A stretch of 64,000 bases of DNA from Escherichia coli 042 (lineage in GTDB: Bacteria; Pseudomonadota; Gammaproteobacteria; Enterobacterales; Enterobacteriaceae): NCBI RefSeq assembly GCF_000027125.1, contig NC_017626.1; one strand, given 5' to 3'. The notes under the pieces were generated by a model. That model saw nothing but the letters and a program-made list of their open reading frames with translations. It was not told the origin of the DNA and ran no database searches. Position numbers and translations under genes: made by a program. Position 1 is the first letter of the stretch; every line of letters starts with the position of its first letter. This document shows, in pieces, positions 16,148-58,631 of the stretch.

Positions 16148-16223
16148 GCCGATATAGCTCAGTTGGTAGAGCAGCGCATTCGTAATGCGAAGGTCGTAGG
16201 TTCGACTCCTATTATCGGCACCA
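16148..16223 (+). tRNA. thrW: tRNA-Thr (anticodon CGU)
   Basis: 76-nt cloverleaf GCCGATATAGCTCAGTTGGTAGAGCAGCGCATTCGTAATGCG...GGTTCGACTCCTATTATCGGCACCA; anticodon loop TTCGTAA; encoded CCA. Confidence 0.9.
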
Positions 16224-16224
16224 T

Positions 16225-16503
16225 TTAAATCAATAAGTTACACATAATTAGTACCTTCCTTTTTTTTGACTGGGACAAATTTGGGACCGATGGGTTCAGG
16301 ACTGAGTCTATTTGCCGTGCGTGTTCGGTAAGGTGATTAGGCGCGAGGTGAGCATATCGACGAACCATTTCGATAGACTCCCAGCCTCCCATTTCTGAAA
16401 ATGCAAGAAGAGAAACACTGGACTGAACCAGCCTGCTTGCCTTTGCTATCAAAGTACCTTGAAGGCCAGATGATTTCTGGCGATATTTACAGCGCTTCCG
16501 CAA
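16225..16503 (-). pseudogene. C-terminal remnant of a tyrosine recombinase (phage-type integrase), 3' end abutting thrW
   Basis: Translation [26 protein letters not shown] carries the integrase C-terminal box with the catalytic Tyr; at most about 90 codons are available before the next gene, so the catalytic core is missing. Confidence 0.55.
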
Positions 16504-16585: not shown

Positions 16586-17056
16586 TCATGCGGCCACCTC
16601 GCTGATAAATTTTACGCCGTCGGCGGTACGCAGCCAGCGTGGGGCTTTGAGTCCTTCCGTGAAATACCAGACCAGCTCACACAGCAGCCCGGTCAGGGTT
16701 TGCTCCATTTTTGGTTCCGCCGGACGTTCCAGCAGAAGCTGGAGTAGTGCGAGGCAGTATTCGCACAAGGAATCAGGTTCGGAAATAAAGTGCTCTGGTG
16801 TGGCGGGAAGGGTATCCACGGTCAGGCTTTCGGTAAGATGCGGTGGGATGGGGTCGTGTAGTGTGGGTTGCAGTAGCGCAAGAGCCGCGTGAAGCCGCCC
16901 GCAGAGCGCCAGTCGTAGCGCTGGATCGTCGGTTTCAATCAGGGTTTCGGCAAAGCGGGCGCAGTAGTCAGCAAGGACAGTGAAATCCGTGGTGGCATTG
17001 AAGGGGACGGTCAATAGATCGAGTAAATCGCTGTCAGTGGTGAGGATTGTAGCCAT
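16586..17056 (-). CDS. Hypothetical acidic, Leu/Ala/Pro-rich protein (156 aa) of unknown function
   Basis: Clean GC-rich ORF with plausible composition; the overlapping plus-strand ORF is Ser/Arg/Gly-rich and looks like a shadow frame. No motif recognised. Confidence 0.45.
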
Positions 17057-17402
17057 AGGGCAACCTCCGATAAGTGGGTGTTCAAGCCACCACCGGAGAG
17101 GCTAATCTCGCGGGTGGTGGAACCGGGCAGGGTTAGCCTTACCAGCCTTATCGGACACTGGCGCGTCTTGCGACGCCCCCGCCCGGCCCACCATTGAGAT
17201 GTAACCGTGCGAACAACACAAAAAAAGACGCTGGCGCGTCATGTGTCGCCGATAAGATTTCTTCAGGAGGCTAATCCCGACGCCTGATTTTGCAGGCGCG
17301 GGAGAAAGATACTGCGATTGGTCATGAGTGGCAAGGGCTACATCATGTTTACCGACATCTCACGCAAAAATACCCTGATTATTAATAGCGAAAATCAGTT
17401 TC

Positions 17403-20400
17403 TTATTTTGGCGGTAGCTTTTTGCGGTTCTTTGCCAACTGGAATCCTTCAGGTAACGGTTTGAATTTATCGCCGCCTTTAGGCCAGCGTTTTGCCCTGC
17501 TCTGAAATGCCCTTAACGAGTCGATATCCAGCGTTGCAGCGACCACAAAGTCATTATCACCGCCCTTCACACGAGCAATATCACGCATAAAGGGTTCTTT
17601 TGCCGGGGAACGTACGCGACTATCGCCGTATTTTCGGTTATTCACTAAAATAGTATAGGCATGAATATCCAGCGCTGCTGATTCAATCAACGATGCAAAC
17701 GTATCTAGATCTTTATTCCAGCTCAATACCATTAATGCATCGAGTGCGCCCTGAAAACGGATCCTCGCTTTACTATTCTGGAGTTCAGAGCAAATCATAA
17801 CGCCAAAATTGACGCCGTGATGAATATATACCGGCTTACGTTGTTTAACATTAAGTGTCGAATCCCAAGACTTACCATAAGTTGAAAATAATGCCTCATC
17901 TTCACCTACGGCGGGTTCCAGCTTGGGTTGCCATATTTTGACACTCGCTGGATAGCCGAGTCTGTTATCTGAAAGGACAAGTACGGCCTCACTCTTCAGT
18001 TGATTATCGTCTAAGTGGCGGTATTCTGTTCCCGCAATTAGACTGATACCCGCCGAACTCAAACGATCAGCAATACTGTTAACCCAGCGTAACGGGATTG
18101 AAAGCTCAGGGAATAAAACATAATCAGGTTTAGGAGATAGTTTCAATGTTGCATTAACCAGTTCAGAAATCCGCTGGTACCTTGAACGGGACAAGTTAGA
18201 TTTATTGCAGGCCATTTTAGCCCAGTCGTCCTCCTCTGTTTTAATGCTGGTTAGCGCAACGACAACTTTATGTTTCCTGTCTGTGCCAATATGAATGAAT
18301 TTCTTAGGCCGAGCTTTTTTTGTCGCTTCATCTGAGTCCTGCTCCGATGCTAGCAACGTCGGTTTGATCCATACTCCGCGTAATGCTTGAGTATATTTTG
18401 CCCAAATGGTGGACGGTCTCTCATCTGGTTTTTTGTCGGATGTGGAGGGTAATCCAACACATTCGGGGGCCAGTTCTGATATTTCAGCGGGTGTTAAAGG
18501 ACGTGTAGGGAAAATGTAAGGTAGGTAACTTTCGTTCTTACGATTTCCTTTAGCCACTTTTTCCAGTCGGGTATTCTTGGTTGATTTCAAAAATAGCTTA
18601 ATAACGTCAATATCAATAAGCGATGAGTCGCTCATTAATTTCAGTATTTTAACTTCTTTTTTACTATCACGCTGATTAACAAGTTTTTCTGCCGACTGAC
18701 TCTTTACGATCTGTTTATAAGGTTCCTTTGCTAAATCAGCTCGAGCTACCAATGGCGCTTTTAAATAAAAATCTGCTGAATCAAAGCGAAGATCCAGTAA
18801 ATCCTTTAGATTCGTCAGACTTTGTGAAATATGATTAAAAAATGTATCCGCAAGGCACTCTTCTTTCTTTGAACGTTTATCAAGAAATAATCTGTCAGGA
18901 CTGTAATATCGTGTCGCTGCATCAACAAATAGCCAGCTTAATGTGCCTTTTATACAGCGCCAAAGATCATTTACTGCTCGAGTTTTGCAACCATTTATAT
19001 TCACTTCCTTACCTGAAGTAATCACCGATGCCAACAGGTTGATGGATTCGTAAGCTTTAAGTACAATTTTTTCCGCGTGCTGCCATTCATTCATACTGAT
19101 AGCAAAGCCAAGCAGCCTTGGCAGATAACTAAAATGTGCAAATAGATTATCAGCCCTAAGAATATGGTTGTAGGCAAACTGATAAAACTCTTCCCGCTGT
19201 TCTTTCCATTCACTTGGAGGCAGATCTCGTGCCAGTGTTTCAACGTAGCGTAATTGCAGTGACCAGCCCAAACGACGAATGGTTAATCCATCCGCACGGC
19301 GCAGAGTATCGGCATTTTCACCTACACTACCGGCAGCGGAAAGGACTTTAGCTGCGGTGGAGTGTTCCAGTTGATCCGGTGAAGGCATCAAGCGGTGTTC
19401 ACTAGAAAGCTCGTAGATCTCCTTTTCGATACTGTCGAGCAGGTCTATTCCAGCCCTCCCTTGAAGCACGAAAAGTTTTTGCTTATCGGATTGTAACTGG
19501 ATGGTGGTCTTACCCTGGAAATGCTCGCCCTGCTGTATTTGCCATATTTGTTTTTGCTCGTTTTTCAAATAAACGCAATCATTGCCAAGCCTATCTTGCA
19601 GCAATAACATAAATTCGTGATTATTAGTAATTGTCCCTGTATCGCGTATTACAAGGAACATATCATCGACATAACGACCGTAGTGAATTGGTGATAGTTT
19701 TTCAATGACTAATTTATCCCAATGGTGTAGCAATATATTTGAAATGATCCGACTGGCTGTTAATCCAATGACCAGACCACCATTAATAACAGGTGTTTTG
19801 TACGCTATTTTCTTTCCAAATGCCGCTGCGCCGTCAGACCAGTGCTTTAAGAATACTGCTAACTGTGCAGTAAACGCTTTTTCATCCTCAGTCAGTTTTA
19901 TGTTTAGTGTGTTATAGAGATCATCAGAGGTTATAGCCAGTGGATCAATAAAATGATAGTAACTTTTTAAATCCAGTGAGGCGGCGATAATGTCACGATC
20001 TTTTTCCAACTCGTCACGTATAGCTTTTAAGCCATCACCACGCCATTTTTGGTAGGGCTGGAAGTAGGGGCTAAAAGAACCCACGGCACTGATATGGAAT
20101 GGATTATCCTGCTCATTGCTAAATAATTCATCATTACGAATACGCTTTAGCCGCGCGCCATAGCAACAGTTATCTAAGCTGGCATCAAATTTATGCCCGA
20201 CCATGTTAATCCATAGTGCAGAGATAATGTGACTATCAACCGGGAAGTCACCAATAATACGAAACTCTGGTATCAGATCAAAATTATTAAATAAATGGTC
20301 GGCTGCTCGTTTAGGATTAGAAAAGTGGACGTGTCCATTTTGGGATTCATGTTTTTTCTTTGTGGTTAATTTTTTCGGTAACAAACGAAATTTGCCAATC

Positions 20401-20612
20401 AACTTCTTATTGCTACTGAATCCATCTTCGCTCTGCAAAAGATCTAAGAGTTTTTGCAGGTTTTCAAGTAATTCCTGCTCATACTCGGCAAATTTGATAG
20501 CAACAGGAAATGTATTCTCAAAGAAGCTATCGGCTTTTGCTTTCCGGTAAGCGACCAGAAGGTCTTCAATCGTCAGATCATCCCAGCCAGTGAAAATTGC
20601 CTGATATGTCAT
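17403..20612 (-). CDS. Reverse transcriptase fused to a C-terminal nitrilase (carbon-nitrogen hydrolase) domain; candidate anti-phage RT (DRT type 1 / UG1-like)
   Basis: 1069 aa. RT motifs: LDLKSYYHFID (motif A-like, aa 213-223), GGLVIGLTASRIISNIL (motif B-like), HYGRYVDDMFLVI (motif C YVDD, aa 314-317, nt 19662-19673). C-terminal nitrilase triad candidates: FPE (E836), VKIWQPK (K892), GVMICSE (C941). AT-rich relative to flanks. Confidence 0.85.
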   Translation of the reverse strand: MTYQAIFTGWDDLTIEDLLVAYRKAKADSFFENTFPVAIKFAEYEQELLENLQKLLDLLQSEDGFSSNKKLIGKFRLLPKKLTTKKKHESQNGHVHFSNPKRAADHLFNNFDLIPEFRIIGDFPVDSHIISALWINMVGHKFDASLDNCCYGARLKRIRNDELFSNEQDNPFHISAVGSFSPYFQPYQKWRGDGLKAIRDELEKDRDIIAASLDLKSYYHFIDPLAITSDDLYNTLNIKLTEDEKAFTAQLAVFLKHWSDGAAAFGKKIAYKTPVINGGLVIGLTASRIISNILLHHWDKLVIEKLSPIHYGRYVDDMFLVIRDTGTITNNHEFMLLLQDRLGNDCVYLKNEQKQIWQIQQGEHFQGKTTIQLQSDKQKLFVLQGRAGIDLLDSIEKEIYELSSEHRLMPSPDQLEHSTAAKVLSAAGSVGENADTLRRADGLTIRRLGWSLQLRYVETLARDLPPSEWKEQREEFYQFAYNHILRADNLFAHFSYLPRLLGFAISMNEWQHAEKIVLKAYESINLLASVITSGKEVNINGCKTRAVNDLWRCIKGTLSWLFVDAATRYYSPDRLFLDKRSKKEECLADTFFNHISQSLTNLKDLLDLRFDSADFYLKAPLVARADLAKEPYKQIVKSQSAEKLVNQRDSKKEVKILKLMSDSSLIDIDVIKLFLKSTKNTRLEKVAKGNRKNESYLPYIFPTRPLTPAEISELAPECVGLPSTSDKKPDERPSTIWAKYTQALRGVWIKPTLLASEQDSDEATKKARPKKFIHIGTDRKHKVVVALTSIKTEEDDWAKMACNKSNLSRSRYQRISELVNATLKLSPKPDYVLFPELSIPLRWVNSIADRLSSAGISLIAGTEYRHLDDNQLKSEAVLVLSDNRLGYPASVKIWQPKLEPAVGEDEALFSTYGKSWDSTLNVKQRKPVYIHHGVNFGVMICSELQNSKARIRFQGALDALMVLSWNKDLDTFASLIESAALDIHAYTILVNNRKYGDSRVRSPAKEPFMRDIARVKGGDNDFVVAATLDIDSLRAFQSRAKRWPKGGDKFKPLPEGFQLAKNRKKLPPK

Positions 20613-20906: not shown

Positions 20907-21710
20907 ATGTCTATTCAGAGGCGACAGTTGCCAAACTATCTAAACTGGCTGATGCAGCACACGCTACCCGGCCAGGTGCTGCTCCAGTCATGGCTTACCC
21001 GCAACGGCATAGATCGTAAGCTCTCTTATCTCTATGTGAAGAATGGCTGGCTCAGGCGGATCGCTCACGGCGTATACTGCCGGACGGGCCGTGAGCCGGA
21101 TTGGGTAGACGCGGTTTACTGCCTTCAAACACAGTGGGAAAAGCCTGTTCGGGTGGCGGGGCTAACCAGCCTTGCGCTTCAGGGCCATGCGCACTATACC
21201 GAACCGGGTAAGCCGCAGGTCTGGCTCGCGCTTCCGGCTTACGTTAAGCTGCCGGGATGGTTTGCTGCCTTCGAACAATCTGCAACATTTATCACGCTGT
21301 ATACATCGGGGCTTACCGTAGATGTAACGTCATTGACTACGGAACTGAAAATTGGCGACCGCCAGTTAGCAGGCAGTGCCCCGGAACTGGCCGCGTATGA
21401 GATCGCCTGCGGCGTTCCTTCGTTGATATCGTTCGAACATGCCGATGCTCTGTTTCAGGGGATGAATCTTCTCAGCCCGCGTAAATTGCAGGCGTTACTC
21501 TGCGCCAGTCATTCGGTTAAAACCAACCGGGTGATGCTTTACCTTGCCCGGCGTAATGGACACCCTTATTTTCAGTATCTTGATCAAAGCGGTATAGAAA
21601 CAGGTACGGGAAAGCGGCAAATCATACCTGGTGGCTGGCTGGAGCCGGATTATCAAATTACTGTTCCACGCGAATTTAAACCGGAAGGAGTCGAAGATGG
21701 ATCTGCGTGA
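20907..21710 (+). CDS. AbiEi-family transcriptional regulator / type IV antitoxin
   Basis: 267 aa; N-terminal AbiEi-type winged-helix signature (YVKNGWLRRIAHGVYCRTG); overlaps and precedes a nucleotidyltransferase gene. Confidence 0.7.
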   Translation: MSIQRRQLPNYLNWLMQHTLPGQVLLQSWLTRNGIDRKLSYLYVKNGWLRRIAHGVYCRTGREPDWVDAVYCLQTQWEKPVRVAGLTSLALQGHAHYTEPGKPQVWLALPAYVKLPGWFAAFEQSATFITLYTSGLTVDVTSLTTELKIGDRQLAGSAPELAAYEIACGVPSLISFEHADALFQGMNLLSPRKLQALLCASHSVKTNRVMLYLARRNGHPYFQYLDQSGIETGTGKRQIIPGGWLEPDYQITVPREFKPEGVEDGSA

Positions 21711-22617
21711 TAGCTATACCCGGCAGGTCAAACTGTTGATGGACGCTCTGCCGCATGTGGCGAAGGAGTCCGGTTTCGCATTAAAAGGCGGCACCGCAAT
21801 CAATTTGTTTGTGCAGGATTTTCCCCGTCTGTCGGTGGATATCGATCTGGCGTATAAGACTTTTGCGGATCGCGATACCGATTTGACGGCGATCAACGAC
21901 GCTTTGAAGAGAATTACTGCATCGCTGAACAGTAAACCGGGGATTACCGCGATTCGGCAGGAAAATAAAACGGATGAAAAGCGCATCATTGTGAATACGG
22001 CTGATGCCCAGATTAAGATCGAGGTTAGTCCGGTCTGGCGTGGGCTATTGTTGCCTCCGGCAGAAATGTCGGTGTGCGAACGTGTGGAAATGGAGTATGG
22101 CTTCACCACTATGAGTGTCGTTTCGCTGGCGGATCTTTATGGCGGTAAAATCTGCGCAGCGCTTGATCGTCAGCACCCGCGCGATCTGTTTGATGTGCTG
22201 AATATGCTGGAGAAACCGGGACTGATGCGGGAGATCTTTGACGGTTTTCTTTGTTATCTGGCAGGCCATCCCCGCCCCATTGCCGAGTTGCTGGCTCCAA
22301 ACTGGGATACAGAGCGGATCACGACGCTGTATGCTCAGGAATTTTCGGGGATGACTCAGCAGGAAACGTCGCTGGAATCGCTGCTGTCAGTAACGACTTT
22401 GCTGCCGCAGGCGTTGAAGTCACATCTTACGGATCTGGATCGCGAGTTCTTGCTCAGTTTTAAGCAAAACAGCCCTGACTGGTCGCGGTATCGCTATCCT
22501 GAAATTCAGCATCTTCCGGCTATTCGCTGGAAGCAACGTAATCTGGCGGTGCTGAAAGATAAAAATCCGGCGAAGTATGTGGCGGCGGTGAATAAGCTAG
22601 AGAGGGTGCTGGCGTAA
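21697..22617 (+). CDS. AbiEii/AbiGii-family nucleotidyltransferase toxin (DUF1814)
   Basis: Start set at ATG 21697 (GGAAGGAG Shine-Dalgarno, 14-nt overlap with the upstream gene); nucleotidyltransferase motif ALKGGTAINLF...RLSVDIDLA. Confidence 0.75.
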   Translation: MDLRDSYTRQVKLLMDALPHVAKESGFALKGGTAINLFVQDFPRLSVDIDLAYKTFADRDTDLTAINDALKRITASLNSKPGITAIRQENKTDEKRIIVNTADAQIKIEVSPVWRGLLLPPAEMSVCERVEMEYGFTTMSVVSLADLYGGKICAALDRQHPRDLFDVLNMLEKPGLMREIFDGFLCYLAGHPRPIAELLAPNWDTERITTLYAQEFSGMTQQETSLESLLSVTTLLPQALKSHLTDLDREFLLSFKQNSPDWSRYRYPEIQHLPAIRWKQRNLAVLKDKNPAKYVAAVNKLERVLA

Positions 22618-39680: not shown

Positions 39681-40292
<612 letters not shown>

Positions 40293-41306
40293 TTACAGGT
40301 ACATTCAGTTTCTTTAGTAAATCGGAAGTAAATAAGATACGTAGCACATATCAATATAGGTTAAACGAGATTAAGTTTTAATTATTTCGATTAGGTTTAA
40401 ATTTATGTTTTTTTCCTGATGAGTGTCAATATGTGAACAGAAAAGGAATTCCATGGTTAAGTCAATATTTACAAAAAATGAAAATATTGCTTTTTTGATA
40501 AGAAGAAAAAGACATTCAGTTTCATAAGGTTATTGGCAATATAACGTTCAATTCTTACTTGCATTTTATATTAGCCAGGAACTTTGCCCTGAGGTGTTAG
40601 GAATAGTCTTAATGTGTTGTGTAATGGACTAGTAAAAAAACAAGTTTAAATGATAAGAAATAGAATATAAAACTATCATGAGTCATAATTAAAGATGATT
40701 TGCCAATCAGTAAGGTGTTTTAATGGATTAACATGCCGCACAAAATGGTTATGGGTGTTCATCCCAATAAGTGATGAAAAATTAAACAGGTGTAAGTACG
40801 TCATCTGTCCGGTAAGCCCCCTAAGAGCCAAATTAAGTGAAGTTAAACGAAGACTGCCAGTTGTCACAGGAACGATGGCCTCTTTGCCAGGGCACTGGAT
40901 TCAGTCATCTGTGCGCGTTACTCTAACTGGCACTCGAACGTCGGCGATGGGGTTACCGGTGGATCAGGCCGTTCCTGTGGCGTAAACGTTTTTATGTCAG
41001 TACCAACAGATTTACCACATTTATCATCTTAACAGTTTGAGTGTAAATGCAGGCTGCGTCGCAAAGGGAGGAAACTGAGTGGCGTGTTCAGTCTAAAAGA
41101 GGGTTGATGCCAGCATACAGGGCGAAGCTGGTCAACAAGTCAACATTAAGATAATGGAATATTCGGAGAGAAACGTCAGGCAGTTGACCTTAAATGAAGA
41201 GGAAGATATATCCCCAGGAAAATTAATGCTGGTGTAATAAATACACCAACATTAATCAGGTCTGATTATTAATCAGACAAATATCGTTAATCCGGCGAAT
41301 TATGAA

Positions 41307-41447
41307 TCAACGTTTTTTCTTACGCCCCTGAACGGCCTTAAAACGTGGATTAGATTTACAAATCACATACAGCCGTCCTTTTCGCTTCACAATCTGACAG
41401 TCTGGATGGCGTTCTTTTGCGGTACGCAGAGAGTTAAGGACTTTCAT
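41307..41447 (-). CDS. rpmJ2: Zinc-independent paralog of ribosomal protein L36
   Basis: Not in the ORF track (46 aa). Manual translation [46 protein letters not shown]; start overlaps the rpmE2 stop by 1 nt. Confidence 0.85.
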
Positions 41448-41713
41448 CACGCCCCCTTTTTCGTGCTAACAAAACGACCAAAACGTTGGGTGAACCGTGC
41501 AACATTTCCTTCTGATGCTACTGTTCTCAGCTTCCCTGTATAGAACGGGTGCGATTTCGAAGAGACATCAATTGTCACGTACGGATACGTTACGCCATCC
41601 AGCTCAATCTCACGGTCTGTTTTGATAGTCGAGCCGATTTTAAAGTACTCATCAACACTGGTGTCATGGAACACCACAGTACGATACTCAGGATGGATAT
41701 TGGGTTTCATCAT
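41447..41713 (-). CDS. rpmE2: Zinc-independent paralog of ribosomal protein L31
   Basis: 88 aa, [33 protein letters not shown]...; no CxxC zinc ribbon. Confidence 0.9.
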
Positions 41714-41720
41714 TTTTACC

Positions 41721-41741
41721 CGTTATGTTATAACATAACCG
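41721..41741 (-). promoter_or_regulatory. Zur box in the rpmE2-rpmJ2 promoter
   Basis: Near-perfect palindrome CGTTATGTTATAACATAACCG, 8 nt upstream of the rpmE2 start codon. Confidence 0.7.
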
Positions 41742-42074
41742 TAAAGATACATGCTCATCCGGATCATTTCAACACCCAATCCCTGTGACCATTTGTGGTA
41801 TGTGGAATTTCCTCAACGGGGAAGTCTGGCATTGTTAACAGCCATTGGCTGACGCTCCCATAAACGCCTGGATGAGTGATTGATGATGGTTTCGCTGAGA
41901 GTATGGATTTTTCGAGAATGGAGGTTATCTCCACTTTACTGGCCGATGATTTATCGCAGTATGATTGATTACCTGACAGCGTGTATTCCTCTCCCACGGA
42001 TATAATAATTACTTACAAAAAGGGAGAGGATGCATATTTTAAATATCACTGAAGTGAACAGTTTATTGCCGTTA

Positions 42075-42176
42075 TTAATAGAAATGGAAAAATAAATAGG
42101 CGTATTCTACAATTGCGACAAAAACAACGATATTAATCAGTTTATGACTGATTTGTTGTACTTTATTCTCTTTCAT
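42075..42176 (-). CDS. ykgR: Small hydrophobic protein YkgR (33 aa)
   Basis: Manual translation MKENKVQQISHKLINIVVFVAIVEYAYLFFHFY; below the ORF-track length cut-off; matches my recollection of YkgR. Confidence 0.6.
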   Translation of the reverse strand: MKENKVQQISHKLINIVVFVAIVEYAYLFFHFY

Positions 42177-42649
42177 TGGTACTTCCTCGCTTTAAAAAAG
42201 AGTGCACTTCGTAAGTGCCCTTATATAAATAACGAGTTTGGTCAACCAATTTTTTGACATGTATCACAAATTTGAATAGATGTATTACATCAACTATCTT
42301 TTATTGCCCCAACGTCATTGATATATGTCGCCTGAAGTCAGTTCCGGGAATGAGTCTGATCTCAAGACAGGCCCAGTCCTGGCGTTGATTAGCGCTGAGG
42401 AGCATATCGCATCTCATCATAATGTCGTATCTCCTGGGGTGTTATACAAGATATCGTTGTTGGTGACCTGGGAGAGGAATTGAGTTCTATTAAACCGTCA
42501 ACTATGCCGGATACATACTGGATTACACAGCAGGCACGCCTTATGAGAGAACGTGCCGCAGTGACGGGTTAATTATCTGAAAGAATTTGCGAGGCTGTAT
42601 CGGTTACTCATTGGTTTGATAGTTTTACTCTCGGGAGAGTAATAGATAT

Positions 42650-43792
42650 TTAATCCATTAACGGAAACCAGCCAGTTCCTTTCGATGCCTGAATTTGATC
42701 CCATAGTTTATCCGGAATGGTTAATTCAGGAACAAGTTGTGGATTAAGGGTTGTTTGAATTTCATGGCTTCTACCTGATTCAGCTAAAGTCACCCATTCT
42801 GGATTTATCACCAGCCCTTTACCGATCGCAACAAGTGGCAGGCCAGTGGAAATTGCTTCTTGAGCCTGAGACGGTGTGCGTATTTTACCTGCGGCGATTA
42901 CCGGCACTCTGCCTGCAATATGATTTAAAATCAATTCAATAGTTCGGGGGCCATTTGGCGACTCAACAGGGTAGCTATCGTTAATACTGACCAGCGAGGT
43001 ATGTATATACGAAATACCGGATGAAATGAGCCGATCAAGGAGTTTATAAGTATCCTCTATCCGCAGCCCCCCTGTTGCAGATTCTTCAGGAGATATTTTG
43101 TAACCGATGGCAAAGGGCTTTGTCGCATATTCATAGACTACATTTTTTACTTCCTGTAATACGGCCAGCGGGAAGCGCATACGTCCTTCGAGATCTCCTC
43201 CCCATCGGTCATTACGCTGGTTAAATAGAGGGGAGAAGAAATTCTGTAGAAGGAATCCGTGCGCACCATGAAGTTCAATGCCATCAAAACCTGCTTTAAT
43301 CGCCCTTTTTGTGACATCTCCGAATGCTCTAATGGTTTCCTGAATTTCGTTTTCAGTCATTTCCCTGCTTTTTACCACTCTCTTCATAAAGTCACCAGAT
43401 TTTACGCTTGATGCGCTGGCACTAATAACATCGTTATTTGGTACAAGCTCCGGGATGGCTTTATTACCGGCGTGGAAAATCTGCAAAATAGCCGGAGCAC
43501 CGCCACTTTTGGCTGCCGCTGCTAACTTTTCAAGGCTGTTAATGAAACGGTCGTCATACGCGGCAAATTCATGAGTAAACCCAATGCCGTTTGGCGTGAC
43601 ATAGGTACATCCTGTTATTACTAAACCAACATTTTGTGAGCGACGTTTATAAAATTCGAGTTCTTGCTCAGAGATGGTTCCATCAGGATTCGCTGACCAG
43701 GTCGTCATAGGAGCCATAACGATACGATTACGTAGCTTTATTTTTTCTGTCAGCATAAAAGGAGAAAACAATGATGGGTGTTTATTTGTCAT
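42650..43792 (-). CDS. NADH:flavin oxidoreductase (Old Yellow Enzyme family)
   Basis: 380 aa; OYE-like TIM-barrel motifs (RIVMAPMTT, IFHAGNKA). Confidence 0.85.
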   Translation of the reverse strand: MTNKHPSLFSPFMLTEKIKLRNRIVMAPMTTWSANPDGTISEQELEFYKRRSQNVGLVITGCTYVTPNGIGFTHEFAAYDDRFINSLEKLAAAAKSGGAPAILQIFHAGNKAIPELVPNNDVISASASSVKSGDFMKRVVKSREMTENEIQETIRAFGDVTKRAIKAGFDGIELHGAHGFLLQNFFSPLFNQRNDRWGGDLEGRMRFPLAVLQEVKNVVYEYATKPFAIGYKISPEESATGGLRIEDTYKLLDRLISSGISYIHTSLVSINDSYPVESPNGPRTIELILNHIAGRVPVIAAGKIRTPSQAQEAISTGLPLVAIGKGLVINPEWVTLAESGRSHEIQTTLNPQLVPELTIPDKLWDQIQASKGTGWFPLMD

Positions 43793-44036
43793 AACAATAC
43801 CTCAAATGTTTATCTGATTTTGATGCGTATGTTTTAACTGGTTAGTTGTTGCCAGCTTTGGAACCAAGGTTTATGGCTTTATTTATAATTCCTTCAAAGG
43901 GTTTCTAATAATCTTAATAATTGAGTTGCTGCTTTTTTGTTTCTTTAATGAAATTTCTTTTTGAGTAATTTTATTATTGTTGTGTAGTCAATAAAGGATA
44001 AATGTCAGGGAGATAAGGAATCTCCCTGTAAGATTA

Positions 44037-44957
44037 TTACAAATGTGTTTTATAAAAAGGAATTAATTTATCGAGTGCCTGTTTCACAGGTTCTGGCTTA
44101 TCATACAGGTCGTAATGTGAATAACCTTCAACCACGACCAGCTCTTTATGTTTTGAGGCAGCGCGGCCAATAATTTCGCAGCCGTCACGGTAGGCACCAA
44201 ATGCGCCCACTCTATCGCCCACCACAACCATTATTGGTTGAGTTAACAGGACTTCTGCAAGATGAAATGCATCCCAACCCACGGCAACAGTCTGATGTGA
44301 GAATAGCGAACGATTTACCCCATTAGGTGCACAGCCTCGTGGCGAACGATAATATTCTGTGGCTTCAAAAAGGTCTATTTCTGTTAATCCCGCTTCAAGA
44401 GCTGCATCCGGAGAAGAGGGGAGTAAATCATCTACGCGAAGTTTTGCGCCGTTAGCTTCGTCTGTTCTTTGTTGCGCCATTGCTTCGAGTGCTCCGATAG
44501 GATTAAACGCTGTAAATCCCTCACGCATAAGACGCCCGTAGTTTGCACCCGTGACAGTACCAATAGCTTTAATTCGACGTTCTGTCATTGCGGCATTAAT
44601 GGCATATCCACCTCCACCACAAATACCCAGTACACCAATACGCCCGGCATCAACGTAAGGTAAGGTGGTAAGGTAATCAACGACAATGCTGAAGTCTTTT
44701 ACTCGCATTGTTGGATCTTCCAGATAACGCGGTTCTCCACCGCTGCTTCCCTGAAAACTGGCATCAAAAGCAATGACGATAAAGCCAGCTTTTGCCAGGG
44801 CGGCACCATACACACTACCCGATGTTTGTTCTTTGCAGCTTCCAATTGGATGGGCGCTGATAATGGCAGGATACTTTTTTTCACTATTAAAATCGTCAGG
44901 GAAATAGATATCAGCAGCTATATCCCAGTAAGTATGTTTTATCGAAACAGTTTTCAT
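44037..44957 (-). CDS. Alpha/beta-hydrolase (dienelactone-hydrolase-like), cytoplasmic paralog of 24110-25267
   Basis: 306 aa; hydrolase core LGICGGGG; shares a conserved block with the 24110 protein (AFDASFQGSSGGEPR vs AFDPSYTGESGGYPR). Confidence 0.8.
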   Translation of the reverse strand: MKTVSIKHTYWDIAADIYFPDDFNSEKKYPAIISAHPIGSCKEQTSGSVYGAALAKAGFIVIAFDASFQGSSGGEPRYLEDPTMRVKDFSIVVDYLTTLPYVDAGRIGVLGICGGGGYAINAAMTERRIKAIGTVTGANYGRLMREGFTAFNPIGALEAMAQQRTDEANGAKLRVDDLLPSSPDAALEAGLTEIDLFEATEYYRSPRGCAPNGVNRSLFSHQTVAVGWDAFHLAEVLLTQPIMVVVGDRVGAFGAYRDGCEIIGRAASKHKELVVVEGYSHYDLYDKPEPVKQALDKLIPFYKTHL

Positions 44958-45113
44958 TTCAAGCTCCGGGGAATTGCCTAAACAGATTTAAATATCATTT
45001 CTATTATCCGCAACTGGCATTCGTGTTCATGTCGAGAACGGCGTAATAGTATGACTTGTATTGGTTATCATCAATGGTCTAATATCTATCACAGTGTTAA
45101 GTTAAGGTTTACA

Positions 45114-46040
45114 ATGATGAAAATAGAGCCTTCAATTTTGCCTTCTCTTGCCTGGTTTGCGCTGATTGTTCGTGCCGGCAGTTTTTCCAGAGCCGCTTCT
45201 GAAATGGGTATTACGCGGGCCGCATTGTCCCAGAATTTAAAATCTCTTGAGGAACGTCTTAACACCAAGCTGATATACCGTACGACCCGCAATATGTCGC
45301 TTACTGAGGAAGGACAGCGTCTGTATGAAGTGCTGGTGTCGGCTTTGGGGCAAATTGATGATGCTTTGAAAGATGTTGGTGATACCCAACTTGAACCTAC
45401 AGGCCTGTTGAGAATAAATTCCTCCCGTGTTGCAGCACGGATGCTTGTTGAGCCTCATATTGGCGAGTTTCTTACTCGTTACCCCAAAACAAAGATAGAA
45501 CTCATTATGGATGACGGTTTATCTAACATTATTGCGGACGGCTGTGATGTGGGCATACGTCTTGAGCAAGGACTGGATGAGCATATGACTGCCATTCCTG
45601 TTTCTCCGCTTATTAAACTGGTTACTGTGGCATCGCCAGATTATTTAAAAGAGCACGGTATTCCTGAAACGCCTCAGGAACTGAGTAACCATAATTGCCT
45701 TCGGTTGCGGCATAAAAGTAGTGGTGCACTCTCTGCATGGGAGTTTTCTAATGTTGCGGGGGGTAATGAAGAGTTCGAAATAGAGGTTTCAGGTAAGTAT
45801 ATTTCTAATGATGACGAAAGCATGATACGAATGGCGCTGAATGGAACGGGTATCATTCAACATCTGGATTTTGCAATCGCTGAACATATCAATGCGGGCA
45901 AGTTACAGCCGATTCTTGAGGATTGGGCTGTTTCATTTCCTGGATTTTATATTTATGTTTCATCACGGGTGAGAATGCCCTCTAAAGTTCGTGCTTTTAT
46001 TGATTTTATGGTGGAGAAAAGAGTAAAACTCGAAAATTGA
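45114..46040 (+). CDS. LysR-family transcriptional regulator
   Basis: Start set at MMKIEPS; HTH (FSRAASEMGITRAALSQNLKSLEERLNTKLIYRTTR); divergent from the hydrolase gene. Confidence 0.85.
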   Translation: MMKIEPSILPSLAWFALIVRAGSFSRAASEMGITRAALSQNLKSLEERLNTKLIYRTTRNMSLTEEGQRLYEVLVSALGQIDDALKDVGDTQLEPTGLLRINSSRVAARMLVEPHIGEFLTRYPKTKIELIMDDGLSNIIADGCDVGIRLEQGLDEHMTAIPVSPLIKLVTVASPDYLKEHGIPETPQELSNHNCLRLRHKSSGALSAWEFSNVAGGNEEFEIEVSGKYISNDDESMIRMALNGTGIIQHLDFAIAEHINAGKLQPILEDWAVSFPGFYIYVSSRVRMPSKVRAFIDFMVEKRVKLEN

Positions 46041-53995: not shown

Positions 53996-54886
53996 CTAAA
54001 CCGGGCGAACGGGGATAAAAATTTCGCAAACAATGTTATTGCTATCAATTTCGACGAAGTTTTCATTGTAATAAAATCGCTCAATATCACTGCCGTTCAC
54101 TCTGGCTAACCCCCTGGCAGGTAATTCCATCAGATAGAGGTTTCGCGCCCATTCAGGGTAGTGCTCCCACTCACCTTCATAGCGGAAAGAGGCATACAGT
54201 CCTCGGTTAATTGTCCACTCTTTCGACATCTCTGAATCGGTTTGTTTGCATACCGTACCGGCAAAAGTTTCAACTGTGAGCAAATCGACCGATTTTGTTG
54301 ACGGTTCGAATGTGGAGACGAAATAGATATCCGTCTTAAAACTCTTCATACATCTGGCTAAATGATGACGTCGCAGTTTGACTTCTTCATCCGGTGATTT
54401 ATTCGACACTTCAATGTCATATTTAAATGAATCGCCAAAAATAGGTGTCTCAGGAAAGTTGACTAATCTACACTCCGTCTTTTGCTGTTGACGTATTAAA
54501 AAAGAAGGGAAGATATTTGCGAGATCCCAATAATCACGGTGGCGGTATTCACGGGGAGAGCAGCCGAATAACTTTTTAAATTCGCGGCTGAATGACTGCT
54601 GTGAGTCAAAATGCAAAGAGAGTGCAATATCAAGCATAGATTTCGCGGTGAGTCGGACAAGAATGGCGGCACGACAAAGCCTTCGTTTGCGAATGTATTC
54701 TCCTAAAGGCACATGCATGAAATTTCGGAACAGAAGCTGGATGTTGCGCCTGCTGTAGCCAGATTTCTGTGCGATATCTTCGATTGAAATAGGGTGCTCA
54801 AGATTGCACTCAATCCACTCCAGGAGCTGCTGTAGAATCTTCTGCCTGATCATCACATTCTCCGTTAATTCTTTGTCATATCGCAC
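53996..54886 (-). CDS. ykgA: AraC-family transcriptional regulator with GyrI-like effector domain
   Basis: 296 aa; N-terminal AraC-type HTH and C-terminal GyrI-like region; position next to eaeH. Confidence 0.7.
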   Translation of the reverse strand: MRYDKELTENVMIRQKILQQLLEWIECNLEHPISIEDIAQKSGYSRRNIQLLFRNFMHVPLGEYIRKRRLCRAAILVRLTAKSMLDIALSLHFDSQQSFSREFKKLFGCSPREYRHRDYWDLANIFPSFLIRQQQKTECRLVNFPETPIFGDSFKYDIEVSNKSPDEEVKLRRHHLARCMKSFKTDIYFVSTFEPSTKSVDLLTVETFAGTVCKQTDSEMSKEWTINRGLYASFRYEGEWEHYPEWARNLYLMELPARGLARVNGSDIERFYYNENFVEIDSNNIVCEIFIPVRPV

Positions 54887-55085
54887 ATTTTCGTTATGTC
54901 CTGGGCCCTAAGTGTATCAAAAATAGCAAGTCCCAAGGCAAAAGCACTGATAGCGTCTGCTTCATTGCCCCAAAAATAGAGAGGTTTCAGTCCTACATTA
55001 TTAATGAATTTTTTGCATAAGTGATATCAAAATCCACATACTAATTTGAGGTTACGTTTTAACGTAGACTCATTGTTCATACCTA

Positions 55086-55970
55086 ATGGAGGGACTGACA
55101 GTGGAATTTTCCGTATTAAGTAACAATCTGAAAATGCCGATGATGGGATTTGGTGTTTTTCAGGTTACCGATAAAGACGTGTGCAAACAGTCAGTGTTGA
55201 ATGCTATCCGCACGGGTTATCGACTCATCGACACTGCAGCGGTATACGGTAATGAAGATGCCGTCGGTGAAGCCGTTCGTGAAGCCATATCTGAAGGTTT
55301 ATGTACCCGAGAAGAGTTATTTATAACGTCTAAATTGTGGGTGCAGGATATGTTGAATCAGGATATTGCAGCAGCAGGTATTGAAGCATCATTAAAAAAA
55401 TCGGGACTGGAATACTTCGATCTCTTTTTATTGCACCAGGCCATGCGCGATTATTTCAGTGCGTGGCGTGCACTCGAAGATGCCTATGAAGAGGGCAAAT
55501 TAAAAGCGATTGGGGTTTCCAATTTCTACCCTCATGTTCTGGCGAACTTTTGTGAAACGGTAAGAGTTAAACCGATGGTCAACCAGGTCGAGTTGCATCC
55601 CTATTTTGCCCAACCAGAGGCGCTGGCAACCATGAAGTATTATAACGTGCAGCCTGAAGCATGGGCTCCGTTAGGTGGTGGACGACATAAACCCTTTGAA
55701 AATAATCTGCTTCAGAGTATTGCAGATGCCCATCAAAAATCGATTTCTCAGGTCATTCTGCGTTGGAATATTCAACGGGGAGTGGTCGTTATTCCGAAAT
55801 CGACACATCAACAGCGTATCGAAGAAAATTTTGCTATTTGGGATTTCTCACTGACAGAGAAAGAAATGGCGCAAATTAGTTCGCTTGATTTGGGTTATGT
55901 TGGGGAATCGGTAAAACATTTTAATCCTGAGTTTGTTCGTGGTTGTCTTGCTGTAAAAATACATGATTGA
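55086..55970 (+). CDS. Aldo-keto reductase (2,5-diketo-D-gluconate reductase-like)
   Basis: 294 aa; AKR motifs (MGFGVFQV, RLIDTAAVYGNE, LHQAMRDY). Confidence 0.85.
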   Translation: MEGLTVEFSVLSNNLKMPMMGFGVFQVTDKDVCKQSVLNAIRTGYRLIDTAAVYGNEDAVGEAVREAISEGLCTREELFITSKLWVQDMLNQDIAAAGIEASLKKSGLEYFDLFLLHQAMRDYFSAWRALEDAYEEGKLKAIGVSNFYPHVLANFCETVRVKPMVNQVELHPYFAQPEALATMKYYNVQPEAWAPLGGGRHKPFENNLLQSIADAHQKSISQVILRWNIQRGVVVIPKSTHQQRIEENFAIWDFSLTEKEMAQISSLDLGYVGESVKHFNPEFVRGCLAVKIHD

Positions 55971-56129
55971 TATTAATCACTTATTTTACCTGAGACGACA
56001 AGAATCTTTTAACAGGGGAGTGATATTGATCTTCACTCTGTCATATCTCCGGTAATATGGCGTCAGGCTTCATCATCAGAAAGGGGGCCTGACGCCTGAA
56101 AAAGTGAACAACAGACAGTGTTCGGATTA

Positions 56130-56723
56130 TCAATATTCAGTTTTTAACGTTGAACTGGATTCATTACTGCGTTGTTTAAGAATTTCCCGCGCCGAATCTG
56201 CCATTATCATGACAGCACCTGCCAGCATCAGAGTATCTTTCAATACCAGGCGACCAGCACCGGATAAATAAGGGAAACCATGATGAGCGTCACCCAATGC
56301 GGGTACCCATGCCTCCGGGGTGGTGATTAAAAATGAGAGTGTTACCAACGGTGTGGTAAATGCCATCAGCCCTCCCAATAAACCTAACCAGCGATTGACA
56401 GGATTAGCCAAAACCAGCAGAGCAATAATCACCTCCACGACGCCAAGACCGTTGGAAAAACCATAGGTATTATTGGCCGTTTGCCATGCCCTTGCTTCTG
56501 GTTTGTATTCGCCTTCGTGAGTCAGATACTGTTTATAGTCTTCCGGGTGTTCATAAAAGAACGACATTAGTGGACTGTTTGCGACGAATGGTGTAATGCT
56601 GTCTGCCTCGTAAGGGACAAACTTTAATAACCCAATCCACATAAAAACAATCGCAATACTCAGACGAATCAATGTCAGGCCAATTTTATCTCCCCGACTT
56701 AACAGGTGCAGGTATTTCTCCAT
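56130..56723 (-). CDS. rclC: Reactive chlorine resistance membrane protein RclC (DUF417)
   Basis: Start set at MEKYLHLLSRGDK, 197 aa; polytopic membrane protein; third gene of the rclABC order. Confidence 0.8.
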   Translation of the reverse strand: MEKYLHLLSRGDKIGLTLIRLSIAIVFMWIGLLKFVPYEADSITPFVANSPLMSFFYEHPEDYKQYLTHEGEYKPEARAWQTANNTYGFSNGLGVVEVIIALLVLANPVNRWLGLLGGLMAFTTPLVTLSFLITTPEAWVPALGDAHHGFPYLSGAGRLVLKDTLMLAGAVMIMADSAREILKQRSNESSSTLKTEY

Positions 56724-56734
56724 TGTAAACATCC

Positions 56735-56971
56735 TTATCTATACAATACTGCTGTTGCGGTTGAATTATTATCAATTCGCATCGATGTGACTTTCCAGGA
56801 TGAAGCATTATATTTTCTGGCCATATCAGCAATGGCATCCTCCAGAACTGTCGGTGATGCTGATACTGACGAGACGCTGATATGTTTCAGAATTATTTTA
56901 TCATCTGCATTGGTGGAAAATGCCATAACGCCAGATAATAGTGTTGCAAATAAAACAGATTTTTTAAACAT
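56735..56971 (-). CDS. rclB: Periplasmic DUF1471 protein RclB
   Basis: Start set at MFKKSVLFATLLSGVMAFSTNA (signal peptide), 78 aa. Confidence 0.8.
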   Translation of the reverse strand: MFKKSVLFATLLSGVMAFSTNADDKIILKHISVSSVSASPTVLEDAIADMARKYNASSWKVTSMRIDNNSTATAVLYR

Positions 56972-57079
56972 ATAAAATACCATCAATGAAGTGATTAAGA
57001 AGTTATAGAGTAACAGAGAATTAATGAGATTCTTTTCTCTGAGACGCCAGAATATTTGTTCTGGCGTCTGATTTTGAGT

Positions 57080-58405
57080 TTATTTGACTAATGAAAATAG
57101 ATCATTGAGTGATTCGCTCATCGACGGATGAGTAAATATCTGATCGCGTAATATGCTATAAGGCAGCCCGGCATCCATCACCATTTTCACTATATTAATC
57201 ATCTCGTGGGAGTCAACACACAGCAGTGATGCCCCTAATATACGTTGGGTTTTATTATCAACAATCGCTTTTAATACCCCACGGGTATCGTTCATCACTC
57301 TTGCGCGCGGAATTGCAGCTACAGGCAATATCACCACCTGAATATCAGCACCACTCTCTTTGGCTTGTTCTTCTGTCATACCAACCCTGGACAGGGGCGG
57401 TGTCATAAATACGGAATAAGGCACATTTTTCCGATCATCAGTACTACGTTTGCCTTCACCCAGTAACTCATCACGTACAATGCGGTAATCATCCAGTGAT
57501 ATGTAAGTAAATTGCAGCCCGCCGGTAACATCTCCCATCGCCCAAATATTGTCTGCGGTGGTATGTAATCGCTTGTCAACGACAATTGCCCCGCGCTCGT
57601 TTACTGCGATACCTGCATTTTCTGGATGTAACGAAGCGGTAGCCGGTTGACGACCGGAAGCTATTAACAGTGCATCCACCGCCAGTTGGGCGTGCTCGCT
57701 ATGCACTTGCACTTGATTTTCATGGTGACTGATTCGCTCCACATGGGCATTGAGGATTATATCGACGCCCTGATCGCGTAAAATCGTCGCGATATTATCA
57801 GCAATATCCCGATCTTCCCGAGGCAAAAACAGCGAAGCTGCTTCTAAAATGGTTACCTTGCTGCCAAAATTAGCGAACATAGAGGCGAACTCAACGCCAA
57901 TATATCCGCCGCCCAAAATACCTAAATGCCCAGGCAATTCTTTTAGATTAAGTAATCCGGTGCTGTCATATACTCCTGGCGTGGTGGTAATTCCAGGAAT
58001 TGGCGGAACCACGGTTTGTGCACCGGTATTAATAAAAATTTTCTCGCCATGAATTTCCAGATTTCCCTCAGGCCGATGAACACGCAGGCTATGATTATTG
58101 ATAAACTCCGCCTGGCCGTCGATCACGTCGATATTGGGCATATCCGCAAGATTATGAAAATTCTTATTACGTAAAAAATTAACCACTTCATTTTTACGCT
58201 GTATGGCACGGACAAAATCTGTGTGCTGCTGTGCGTCATGAACCAATGTTTTGGTTGGGATGCAGCCGATATTAATACAGGTCCCGCCATACATTGCATT
58301 TGATTGTTCGATGAGAGCCACACGCCAACCTGCTTTTGCCAGCGTGACGGCTAATGTTTTTCCAGCCTTGCCAAAACCAATAATAACTGCCTGATATTTA
58401 TTCAT
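57080..58405 (-). CDS. rclA: Reactive chlorine resistance flavoprotein disulfide reductase RclA
   Basis: Start set at MNKYQAVIIGFGKAGKTLA, 441 aa; FAD motif GxGxxG and redox-active CINIGC. Confidence 0.9.
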   Translation of the reverse strand: MNKYQAVIIGFGKAGKTLAVTLAKAGWRVALIEQSNAMYGGTCINIGCIPTKTLVHDAQQHTDFVRAIQRKNEVVNFLRNKNFHNLADMPNIDVIDGQAEFINNHSLRVHRPEGNLEIHGEKIFINTGAQTVVPPIPGITTTPGVYDSTGLLNLKELPGHLGILGGGYIGVEFASMFANFGSKVTILEAASLFLPREDRDIADNIATILRDQGVDIILNAHVERISHHENQVQVHSEHAQLAVDALLIASGRQPATASLHPENAGIAVNERGAIVVDKRLHTTADNIWAMGDVTGGLQFTYISLDDYRIVRDELLGEGKRSTDDRKNVPYSVFMTPPLSRVGMTEEQAKESGADIQVVILPVAAIPRARVMNDTRGVLKAIVDNKTQRILGASLLCVDSHEMINIVKMVMDAGLPYSILRDQIFTHPSMSESLNDLFSLVK

Positions 58406-58631
58406 GATGATTTCCTGTCGAAACGCGTTCATTTGACATCATGACTATAGACGCAAAAGAGCAAATAACATTTCTTCACAACGCTTGATATTTTGTCTTA
58501 TCGTCTGGTATTTTCTTTTTCTTAATCAGAATCACAAAACAAAAATCATGATTAACTATTTGATGGTATTAGATTAATTATTGACTAAGATTGTTGGTGT
58601 TTGTAATCAAAAAACCACTCAGGAGTCTGAT

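What the first reader, a model, noticed from the sequence alone, without database searches (positions are those of the whole stretch)
18276..19412. About 380 residues between the RT and nitrilase domains, and about 195 N-terminal residues, carry no motif I can assign
Residues roughly 400-780 (nt 18276-19412) and 1-195 (nt 20031-20612) have no recognisable catalytic signature. The middle segment is Lys/Glu/Leu-rich (…KEVKILKLMSDSSLIDIDVIKLFLKSTKNTRLEKVAKGNRK…), suggesting a helical or nucleic-acid-binding linker. In other defence RTs such regions determine template binding or target sensing, so they are where this protein may differ from described DRT1 members.
Basis: inference. Interest (0 to 1): 0.45.

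Follow-up and report, generated by a model that had tools for sequence, protein, structure and literature searches.

The report
Unassigned parts of UG5 RT-nitrilase
The two "motif-less" stretches belong to a known anti-phage reverse-transcriptase/nitrilase fusion (UG5-large, not DRT1): the first is the finger part of the polymerase, and the second is a probable self-priming arm followed by a helical-repeat scaffold, so the finding is mostly ordinary.

Summary
The protein is not DRT1/UG1. It matches the PADLOC RT_UG5-nitrilase model end to end (1034 bits), which makes it a UG5-large class 3 UG/Abi reverse transcriptase.

Residues 1-195 are as conserved as the RT core. They carry the RT finger motifs and align with the biochemically tested DRT5L.

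Residues 401-779 fall into four parts:
- A fixed-length arm (384-440) holds an invariant Ser404. It lies 27 residues after an invariant Lys, the same spacing as the DRT1 priming serine S402.
- A well-conserved helical block spans 441-530.
- A poorly conserved helical block spans 531-700 and contains the quoted K/E/L peptide.
- An invariant FPTRP motif is followed by a linker into the nitrilase.

[quoted passage not shown] Ser404 as the priming site is a new, testable prediction. Overall this is a new member of a known kind, of low to moderate interest.

The parts
17403..20612 (-). UG5-large RT-nitrilase gene (1069 aa plus stop)
   Evidence: ORF. PADLOC RT_UG5-nitrilase PDLC03780 E=0, 1034 bits, residues 1-1068. 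An identical protein cluster holds 1122 member sequences. The locus is in 258 of 5426 complete E. coli genomes.
20028..20612 (-). Residues 1-195: RT N-terminal extension and finger subdomain (AYRKAK 21-26, PK 79-80, EFR 116-118, SALWI..VG 131-139, YGxRLKR 151-157), with a variable loop at about 81-100
19464..20027 (-). Residues 196-383: RT palm (D214 motif 3/A; GLxxGLxAS..N292..D299 motif 4; YVDD 314-317; invariant K377)
   Evidence: Invariant columns. Profile matches to DRT1, Drt3a and retron RTs.
19293..19463 (-). Residues 384-440: fixed-length acidic arm with the motif I..I...SSExRLLP, followed by a disordered loop (429-440)
   Evidence: Length is 50-58 in 134 family representatives and net charge is <=0 in 92 %. 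It is 98 % identical in an 82 %-identical homologue, the best-conserved part of the protein. pLDDT is below 50 at 429-440.
19401..19403 (-). Ser404 codon: candidate protein-priming residue
   Evidence: S in 134 of 134 representatives, and 27 residues after invariant K377 in 133 of 134. DRT1 priming S402 is 27 (24 of 40) or 29 (16 of 40) residues after invariant K373. The same SS...LP motif occurs in DRT5L and DRT5S. The priming role itself is inference.
19023..19292 (-). Residues 441-530: conserved first block of the alpha-helical repeat domain (AD.LRKAD.LS.RRL, R447, W469, YLPR499)
   Evidence: Conservation is 1.65-2.41 bits with no gaps. Four long helices at pLDDT 90-95. 93 % identical in an 82 %-identical homologue.
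18513..19022 (-). Residues 531-700: variable second block of the helical domain, including the quoted K/E/L peptide (652-692); only D626 is nearly invariant
   Evidence: Conservation is 0.3-1.0 bits with 13-68 % gaps. Length is 114-211 in the family. Net charge is +10 here against a family median of +1. Identity is 18-22 % in 40-50 %-identical homologues.
18270..18512 (-). Residues 701-781: FPTRP motif (T703 and R704 invariant), short helices and a flexible linker (about 764-771) into the nitrilase
   Evidence: Many distant homologues resume alignment at about 690-700. BLASTP to DRT5L resumes at residue 773.
17493..18269 (-). Residues 782-1040: C-N hydrolase (nitrilase) domain with tetrad E836, K897, E904, C941
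17406..17492 (-). Residues 1041-1069: basic C-terminal tail with K1051-P-L-P1054-E-G1056-F
   Evidence: Aligns to DRT1 K1219-T-Q-P1222-A-G1224-F, the domain-swapped lid essential in DRT1 (PMC13275509). K1051, P1052 and P1054 are nearly invariant in both family alignments, G1056 in A1 only.

Best explanation
The gene encodes a single-protein UG5-large (class 3 UG/Abi) defence reverse transcriptase fused to a nitrilase. The two 'unassigned' stretches are integral parts of that architecture, not extra modules.

Residues 1-195 are the N-terminal extension and finger subdomain of the RT itself.

Residues 401-779 begin inside a constant-length arm that starts at residue 384, directly after the palm. 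The arm carries an invariant serine (Ser404) at the position where DRT1 has its priming serine, and ends in a flexible loop. An alpha-helical repeat (alpha-solenoid, HEAT-like) domain follows. Its first half is strongly conserved and its second half is lineage-variable. An FPTRP motif and a linker then lead into the nitrilase.

By analogy with DRT1 and with the tested DRT5L/DRT5S enzymes, I infer the following mechanism. The RT makes template-free DNA covalently attached to Ser404. The DNA adduct drives oligomerisation through the nitrilase domains. The RT and helical domains sit on the outside of the assembly, making inter-subunit contacts and holding the DNA. The C-terminal K-x-x-P-x-G-F tail closes the neighbouring nitrilase site until phage infection releases it, causing abortive infection.

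Shown here: family assignment, domain boundaries, conservation pattern and predicted folds. Inferred: the priming residue, oligomerisation, and the roles of the helical domain and tail.
For: - Family: the PADLOC RT_UG5-nitrilase model matches full length. 856 clusters at 50 % identity match with E<=1e-30.
- Ser404: invariant, with the same Lys-to-Ser spacing as DRT1 S402. DRT5L and DRT5S share the SS...LP motif.
- Tail: aligns with the DRT1 lid.
- Literature: DRT1 has RT, alpha-helical repeat and nitrilase domains; S402 primes from a disordered loop; DRT5S/L are also template-free and protein-primed (PMC13275509). A UG5-large RT-nitrilase defends S. meliloti without a TM partner or ncRNA (bioRxiv 10.64898/2025.12.16.694600). 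Class 3 proteins share an inter-domain extension of unknown function (PMC9226505).
Against: - No sequence method gives a significant alignment of either segment to DRT1, so correspondence with DRT1's helical domain rests on architecture and fold class only.
- 9YFD was not in the fold libraries, so no direct structural superposition was possible.
- PMC13275509 states that S402 is not conserved in other class 3 DRTs.
- In the AF2 model Ser404 sits in a helix (385-407, pLDDT about 80), not in a disordered loop.
- The middle segment is about 230-250 residues shorter than in DRT1.
- Nothing here tests activity, oligomerisation or defence for this protein.
Confidence: 0.7

Rival explanations
1. The variable half of the helical domain (about 531-700) is a phage-sensing or specificity module. 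It recognises a phage protein or nucleic acid and sets which phages trigger the system, close to the first reader's 'target sensing' idea.
For: It is the fastest-evolving part of the protein: 18-22 % identity where the rest is 40-60 %, and length 114-211 residues. It is predicted to be folded (pLDDT about 78-94). In this lineage it is strongly basic (+10). DRT1 activation depends on a phage ssDNA helicase (PMC13275509).
Against: No direct evidence. Variability can equally mean weak constraint on a scaffold surface. The charge is not conserved in the family (median +1). In DRT1 the helical domain is described only in filament contacts.
Confidence: 0.25
2. The middle segment is a template- or ncRNA-binding domain, as in class 2 DRTs (DRT2, DRT9) and retrons.
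For: It is a helical, partly basic region next to an RT. RNA genes lie just downstream (C4/isrK).
Against: [quoted passage not shown] No ncRNA was seen, and an upstream deletion was tolerated, in S. meliloti UG5-large (bioRxiv 10.64898/2025.12.16.694600). The neighbouring RNAs are P4-type immunity RNAs of the decayed satellite. Homologues sit in unrelated contexts. Rfam finds nothing else.
Confidence: 0.05
3. The middle segment is merely a flexible spacer that gives the two enzymatic domains freedom to move (the suggestion in PMC9226505), or a small DUF4136 connector (as annotated for S. meliloti DRT11).
For: Class 3 proteins all have such an extension. Two short low-confidence loops exist, at 429-440 and about 764-771.
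Against: About 300 of the 380 residues are confidently predicted helices forming a compact solenoid. Residues 384-530 are the most conserved part among close homologues. The segment contains invariant residues S404, T703 and R704. No DUF4136 match appears at E<=1.
Confidence: 0.05

Closest known systems
UG5-large RT-nitrilase (class 3 UG/Abi RT): 'DRT11' of Sinorhizobium meliloti RMO17, 'DRT5L' of Neville et al. 2026, and the RT-nitrilase+TM system of E. coli E101
   Same: Full-length match to the PADLOC UG5-nitrilase model. It has YVDD and a fused C-N hydrolase with the catalytic tetrad. It has no adjacent TM gene and no ncRNA candidate, like DRT11. The N-terminus plus RT, and the nitrilase plus tail, align to DRT5L. 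The SS...LP motif is shared. It sits in a defence or mobile island next to AbiE, as DRT11 does.
   Different: The middle 321-772 does not align to DRT5L by BLASTP, and only one of the two PADLOC UG5-nitrilase profiles covers it. This version is 1069 aa, against 1005 (DRT11) and about 947 (DRT5L). It has not been tested. The 'DUF4136' connector reported for DRT11 is not detectable here.
DRT1 / UG1 (PDB 9YFD, E. coli/Klebsiella, 1229 aa)
   Same: Same domain order: RT, disordered priming loop, alpha-helical domain, nitrilase, C-terminal lid. The RT core (about 150-380) and the nitrilase align. An invariant Ser lies at the same distance from the invariant palm Lys. The K-x-x-P-x-G-F tail is shared.
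   Different: The Drt1a models match only partially and there is no NCBIfam Drt1a hit. The N-terminal 150 residues and the whole middle show no significant sequence similarity. The middle is about 230-250 residues shorter.
Class 1 protein-priming Abi/UG polymerases with a C-terminal alphaRep domain (AbiK 7R06, AbiA 8OZ7, Abi-P2 7R08, DRT4/UG15 9VDO)
   Different: A different UG/Abi class. They prime from other residues and have no nitrilase. The similarity is at fold level only (11-13 % identity).

Membership tests
UG5-large (class 3 UG/Abi RT-nitrilase) | Full-length match to the family profile (RT_UG5-nitrilase) | tested here: met
   PDLC03780 E=0, 1034 bits, residues 1-1068 against profile positions 9-901 of 907. 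Each segment alone also matches: 2.5e-60 and 1.2e-58.
UG5-large (class 3 UG/Abi RT-nitrilase) | RT domain with an intact catalytic YxDD | tested here: met
   Y314-V-D316-D317. Y314 and D316 are invariant in both family alignments; D317 is invariant in A2 and nearly invariant in A1.
UG5-large (class 3 UG/Abi RT-nitrilase) | C-N hydrolase domain fused at the C-terminus with catalytic Glu-Lys-Glu-Cys | tested here: met
UG5-large (class 3 UG/Abi RT-nitrilase) | Inter-domain extension between the RT and the hydrolase | tested here: met
   Residues about 384-781, predicted to be an alpha-helical repeat. Described as shared by class 3 in PMC9226505.
UG5-large (class 3 UG/Abi RT-nitrilase) | Adjacent transmembrane partner gene (clusters 85/1858; present in only 31 of 299 members, so optional) | tested here: not met
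   No such ORF flanks the gene. The downstream 156-aa ORF is not hydrophobic and has no Pfam hit. S. meliloti DRT11 works without one.
UG5-large (class 3 UG/Abi RT-nitrilase) | [quoted passage not shown] | not testable with these tools
   Reported for DRT5L/DRT5S (PMC13275509) and DRT11 (bioRxiv 10.64898/2025.12.16.694600); not shown for this protein.
DRT1 / UG1 | Full-length match to the Drt1a profiles; length 1200-1300 aa | tested here: not met
   Drt1a PDLC03745 matches only residues 151-409 (4e-26) and PDLC02171 only 940-1045. No NCBIfam Drt1a hit at E<=1. The protein is 1069 aa.
   phmmer and hmmsearch against 9YFD, BLASTP and hhalign: N-terminus E=0.05, middle E=0.71.
DRT1 / UG1 | Conserved priming serine in the loop after the palm | tested here: inconclusive
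   Invariant S404 has the same spacing from the invariant Lys as S402, but hhalign places it 5 residues away, and priming was not tested.

The most novel reading that the evidence does not exclude
Ser404, in the motif SSExRLLP, is the protein-priming residue of UG5 enzymes and is positionally homologous to DRT1 Ser402. This would mean that class 3 RT-nitrilases share one priming arm, contrary to the published remark that the DRT1 serine is not conserved in other class 3 DRTs. In addition, the lineage-variable half of the helical domain (531-700) would be the part that tunes DNA-adduct binding or phage sensing.
Probability: 0.45. Interest if true: 0.45.

Novelty: new member of a known kind. Interest (0 to 1): 0.3.

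Why it matters
The gene is an untested but common E. coli version of a defence family whose mechanism was only outlined in 2025-2026; it occurs in about 5 % of complete genomes. Three results are useful. First, the annotation changes from DRT1 to UG5-large. Second, the 'unknown' 575 residues are split into defined, testable parts. Third, one residue (Ser404) and one motif (K1051..P..GF) are named for mutagenesis. If Ser404 primes, class 3 RT-nitrilases share a common priming arm. No new kind of system is implied.

Tried and rejected
- The weak Pfam hits NMT (residues 470-555, E 0.007-0.03) and DUF6762 (residues 3-61) are far below their thresholds and were rejected.
- DUF4136, reported as the connector in S. 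meliloti DRT11, was not found at E<=1.
- Foldseek of the full model against the PDB could not test DRT1, because the fold library stops at 2026-04-08 and lacks 9YFD. afdb50 was unavailable.
- A search with a 230-aa DRT1 fragment returned only gene fragments. Full-length DRT1 was recovered instead through E. coli genomes and used to build a family alignment.
- hhalign of the N-terminal and middle sub-alignments against DRT1 was not significant.
- A PDB profile search with the middle segment gave only chance hits to helical proteins, E >= 0.08.
- The promoter and terminator scan around the gene was no better than shuffles for promoters.
- The idea of a conserved basic nucleic-acid-binding linker was rejected, because the positive charge of 531-700 is lineage-specific.

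Full report
**1. What is at the coordinates**

A single 1069-aa ORF runs from 20612 to 17403 on the minus strand. Residue i starts at nt 20612-3(i-1). The finding's 18276-19412 therefore encodes residues 401-779, and 20031-20612 encodes residues 1-194. The quoted peptide is residues 652-692.

The gene lies in a low-GC stretch (40-42 % against 51-56 % in the flanks). It sits between proBA/tRNA-Thr(CGT) with an integrase fragment on one side and an AbiEi/AbiEii pair on the other. P4-type C4/isrK RNA genes lie directly downstream. Together these mark a decayed P4-like island at thrW.

An identical protein cluster holds 1122 member sequences. The locus is in 258 of 5426 complete E. coli genomes, where it is annotated only as 'RNA-directed DNA polymerase'.

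**2. Which family**

Pfam and NCBIfam give nothing above threshold. PADLOC's RT_UG5-nitrilase profile matches from residue 1 to 1068 (E=0, 1034 bits). The Drt1a profiles match only residues 151-409 and 940-1045.

The family is large: 856 clusters at 50 % identity match with E<=1e-30.

Three published results bear on it:
- A UG5-large protein from S. meliloti ('DRT11') defends against phage. It needs only RT and nitrilase activity, with no TM partner and no ncRNA (bioRxiv 10.64898/2025.12.16.694600).
- DRT1 (PDB 9YFD) consists of an RT, an alpha-helical repeat domain and a nitrilase. It makes template-free DNA primed on S402 in a disordered loop (382-478), forms DNA-stabilised filaments, and closes the nitrilase with a domain-swapped C-terminus. 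The UG5 enzymes DRT5S and DRT5L also make protein-linked DNA without a template (PMC13275509).

**3. The N-terminal 195 residues**

In an alignment of 134 family representatives, this segment is as conserved as the RT core: 1.74 against 1.84 bits per column. The nearly invariant and consensus positions are:
- A21-Y-R-K-A-K26
- K80, in 'PK'
- R118, in 'EFR'
- the L133/W134/G139 block
- R154, in 'YGxRL'
- W190

These have the order and character of RT motifs 0, 1, 2 and 2a. That motif assignment is my reading, based on established knowledge of group II intron and retron RTs.

Independent support:
- The segment alone hits UG5_small (2e-16) and the second UG5-nitrilase profile (6e-12).
- BLASTP aligns residues 13-320 colinearly with the tested DRT5L (E 6e-17).
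- Residues 9-61 resemble the N-terminal extension of G2L4 RT (E 0.01).
- The DRT1 profile match already starts at residue 150, at 'YGNRL'.
- AF2 predicts helices 15-60, a beta-hairpin (74-86 and 111-122) and helix 125-145 with high confidence.

Only about 81-100 is variable and of low confidence. The segment is the finger subdomain of the RT, not a separate module. Against DRT1 itself the best hhalign placement is collinear (2-200 to 7-195) but not significant (E 0.05).

**4. The middle segment is four things**

(a) Residues 384-440 form an arm of nearly constant length (50-58 residues) with conserved negative charge. Among close homologues it is the best-conserved part of the protein: 98 % identity where the whole protein is 82 %.

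It contains 'I..I...S-S404-E-x-R407-L-L-P410'. Ser404 is invariant in 134 of 134 representatives and lies 27 residues after invariant K377 in 133 of them. In 40 DRT1 family members the priming S402 is invariant and lies 27 (24 sequences) or 29 (16 sequences) residues after invariant K373. It is likewise followed by an invariant Arg.

The supplementary table of PMC13275509 gives DRT5L 'QEIENRSSAFRLPEE' and DRT5S 'ELEANSSDFLLLPVDD', which is the same motif (the text is machine-read, so exact letters are uncertain). The arm ends in the only long low-confidence stretch of the model (429-440).

(b) Residues 441-530 are four long helices with pLDDT above 90. They are gap-free and conserved (1.65-2.41 bits), with the motifs AD.LRKAD.LS.RRL and YLPR.

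(c) Residues 531-700 are helical but poorly conserved. Conservation is 0.3-1.0 bits with 13-68 % gaps, length is 114-211 residues, and identity falls to 18-22 % in homologues that are 40-50 % identical overall. The quoted K/E/L peptide lies here. Its basic character (+10) is specific to this lineage; the family median is +1. The middle as a whole is not enriched in K, E or L relative to the whole protein.

(d) Residues 701-781 carry F-P-T703-R704-P (T and R invariant), short helices and a flexible linker. Many distant homologues, and DRT5L, resume alignment here.

**5. Fold**

AF2 of the whole protein gives pLDDT 88.3 and pTM 0.91. Residues 384-781 alone give 81.0 and 0.76.

**6.

The test was whether the segments align full-length to characterised DRT1. 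I recovered the 9YFD sequence from E. coli H8 (WP_049024715.1) and built a 40-member DRT1 alignment.

phmmer, hmmsearch with family profiles, BLASTP and hhalign all align only the RT core and the nitrilase. The N-terminal sub-profile gives E 0.05 and the middle sub-profile E 0.71. The middle profile finds nothing meaningful in the PDB.

The finding is therefore not refuted on its own terms: these are the regions that differ from DRT1. The reason is simply that the protein belongs to the sister family. Direct structural comparison with 9YFD was impossible, because that entry is newer than the fold libraries and afdb50 was offline.

**7. Mechanism (inference by analogy)**

The shared parts are:
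- YVDD;
- the invariant Ser at matching spacing;
- the helical domain;
- the nitrilase tetrad E836/K897/E904/C941;
- a C-terminal K1051-P-L-P1054-E-G1056-F that aligns with DRT1's essential K1219-T-Q-P1222-A-G1224-F.

Given these, I consider it most likely that this protein primes template-free DNA on Ser404. I also expect it to use the adduct to assemble through its nitrilase domains, with the RT and helical domains outside, and to keep the nitrilase closed by the swapped tail until infection. The conserved block 441-530 would be structural, packing against the RT and arm. The variable block 531-700 could be an exposed surface for contacts, DNA or phage factors.

Against this: PMC13275509 says S402 is not conserved in other class 3 DRTs; AF2 puts Ser404 in a helix; and nothing was measured for this protein.

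**8. Verdict**

The protein is a UG5-large member, and the N-terminal stretch is the RT fingers. The middle stretch is the already noted class 3 extension, here resolved into a priming arm, a conserved and a variable helical block, and a linker. This is a new member of a known kind. The one non-trivial product is the Ser404 prediction.

Noticed in passing
window 17110-17312 (-): Rfam C4 antisense RNA (71 bits), isrK (69 bits) and the c4-a1b1 target (44 bits) lie directly downstream of the RT-nitrilase gene. This is the immunity region of a P4-like satellite, so the defence gene sits in a decayed P4-type island. An 'ash family' ORF is annotated there in strain MEI003.
   Followed up: partly
window 16148-16503: tRNA-Thr(CGT) (thrW) is immediately followed by a C-terminal integrase fragment on the opposite strand, which marks the island's integration site after proBA. 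GC falls to 40-42 % across 18-21 kb.
   Followed up: partly
window 20907-22617 (+): An AbiEi antitoxin / AbiEii nucleotidyltransferase toxin pair is transcribed divergently from the RT-nitrilase (Pfam E 3e-35 and 9e-35). The same pairing of neighbours is reported next to S. meliloti DRT11.
   Followed up: no
L001 4304-7509 (E. coli MEI003): In this strain the same gene is frameshifted near residue 508 and annotated as two CDS, 'RNA-directed DNA polymerase' and 'hypothetical protein'. At least one carrier genome therefore holds a broken copy.
   Followed up: partly
L002/L003 (Salmonella) and L005 (the contig carrying the Pleionea litopenaei protein P0013), genes upstream of 5001: Homologues that are 73-76 % identical lie directly after a type I R-M operon plus KwaA/KwaB (Kiwa), in the same order in enterobacterial and marine hosts. 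This suggests a mobile multi-system defence cassette.
   Followed up: no
L008 3491-7623 (E. coli H8): Genuine DRT1 (the 9YFD sequence, 1229 aa) is present in 78 of 5426 complete E. coli genomes, with a 144-aa gene 8 nt downstream that may be drt1b. In strain DA33135 the DRT1 gene is frameshifted.
   Followed up: no
window 16586-17056 (-): A 156-aa ORF between the integrase fragment and the C4 RNA region has no Pfam, PHROG or other family match. It is annotated as a hypothetical protein (WP_000201185.1).
   Followed up: partly
window 40001-46000 and 54001-59000: Further low-GC stretches (36-45 %) in the window suggest other horizontally acquired segments. They were not examined.
   Followed up: no
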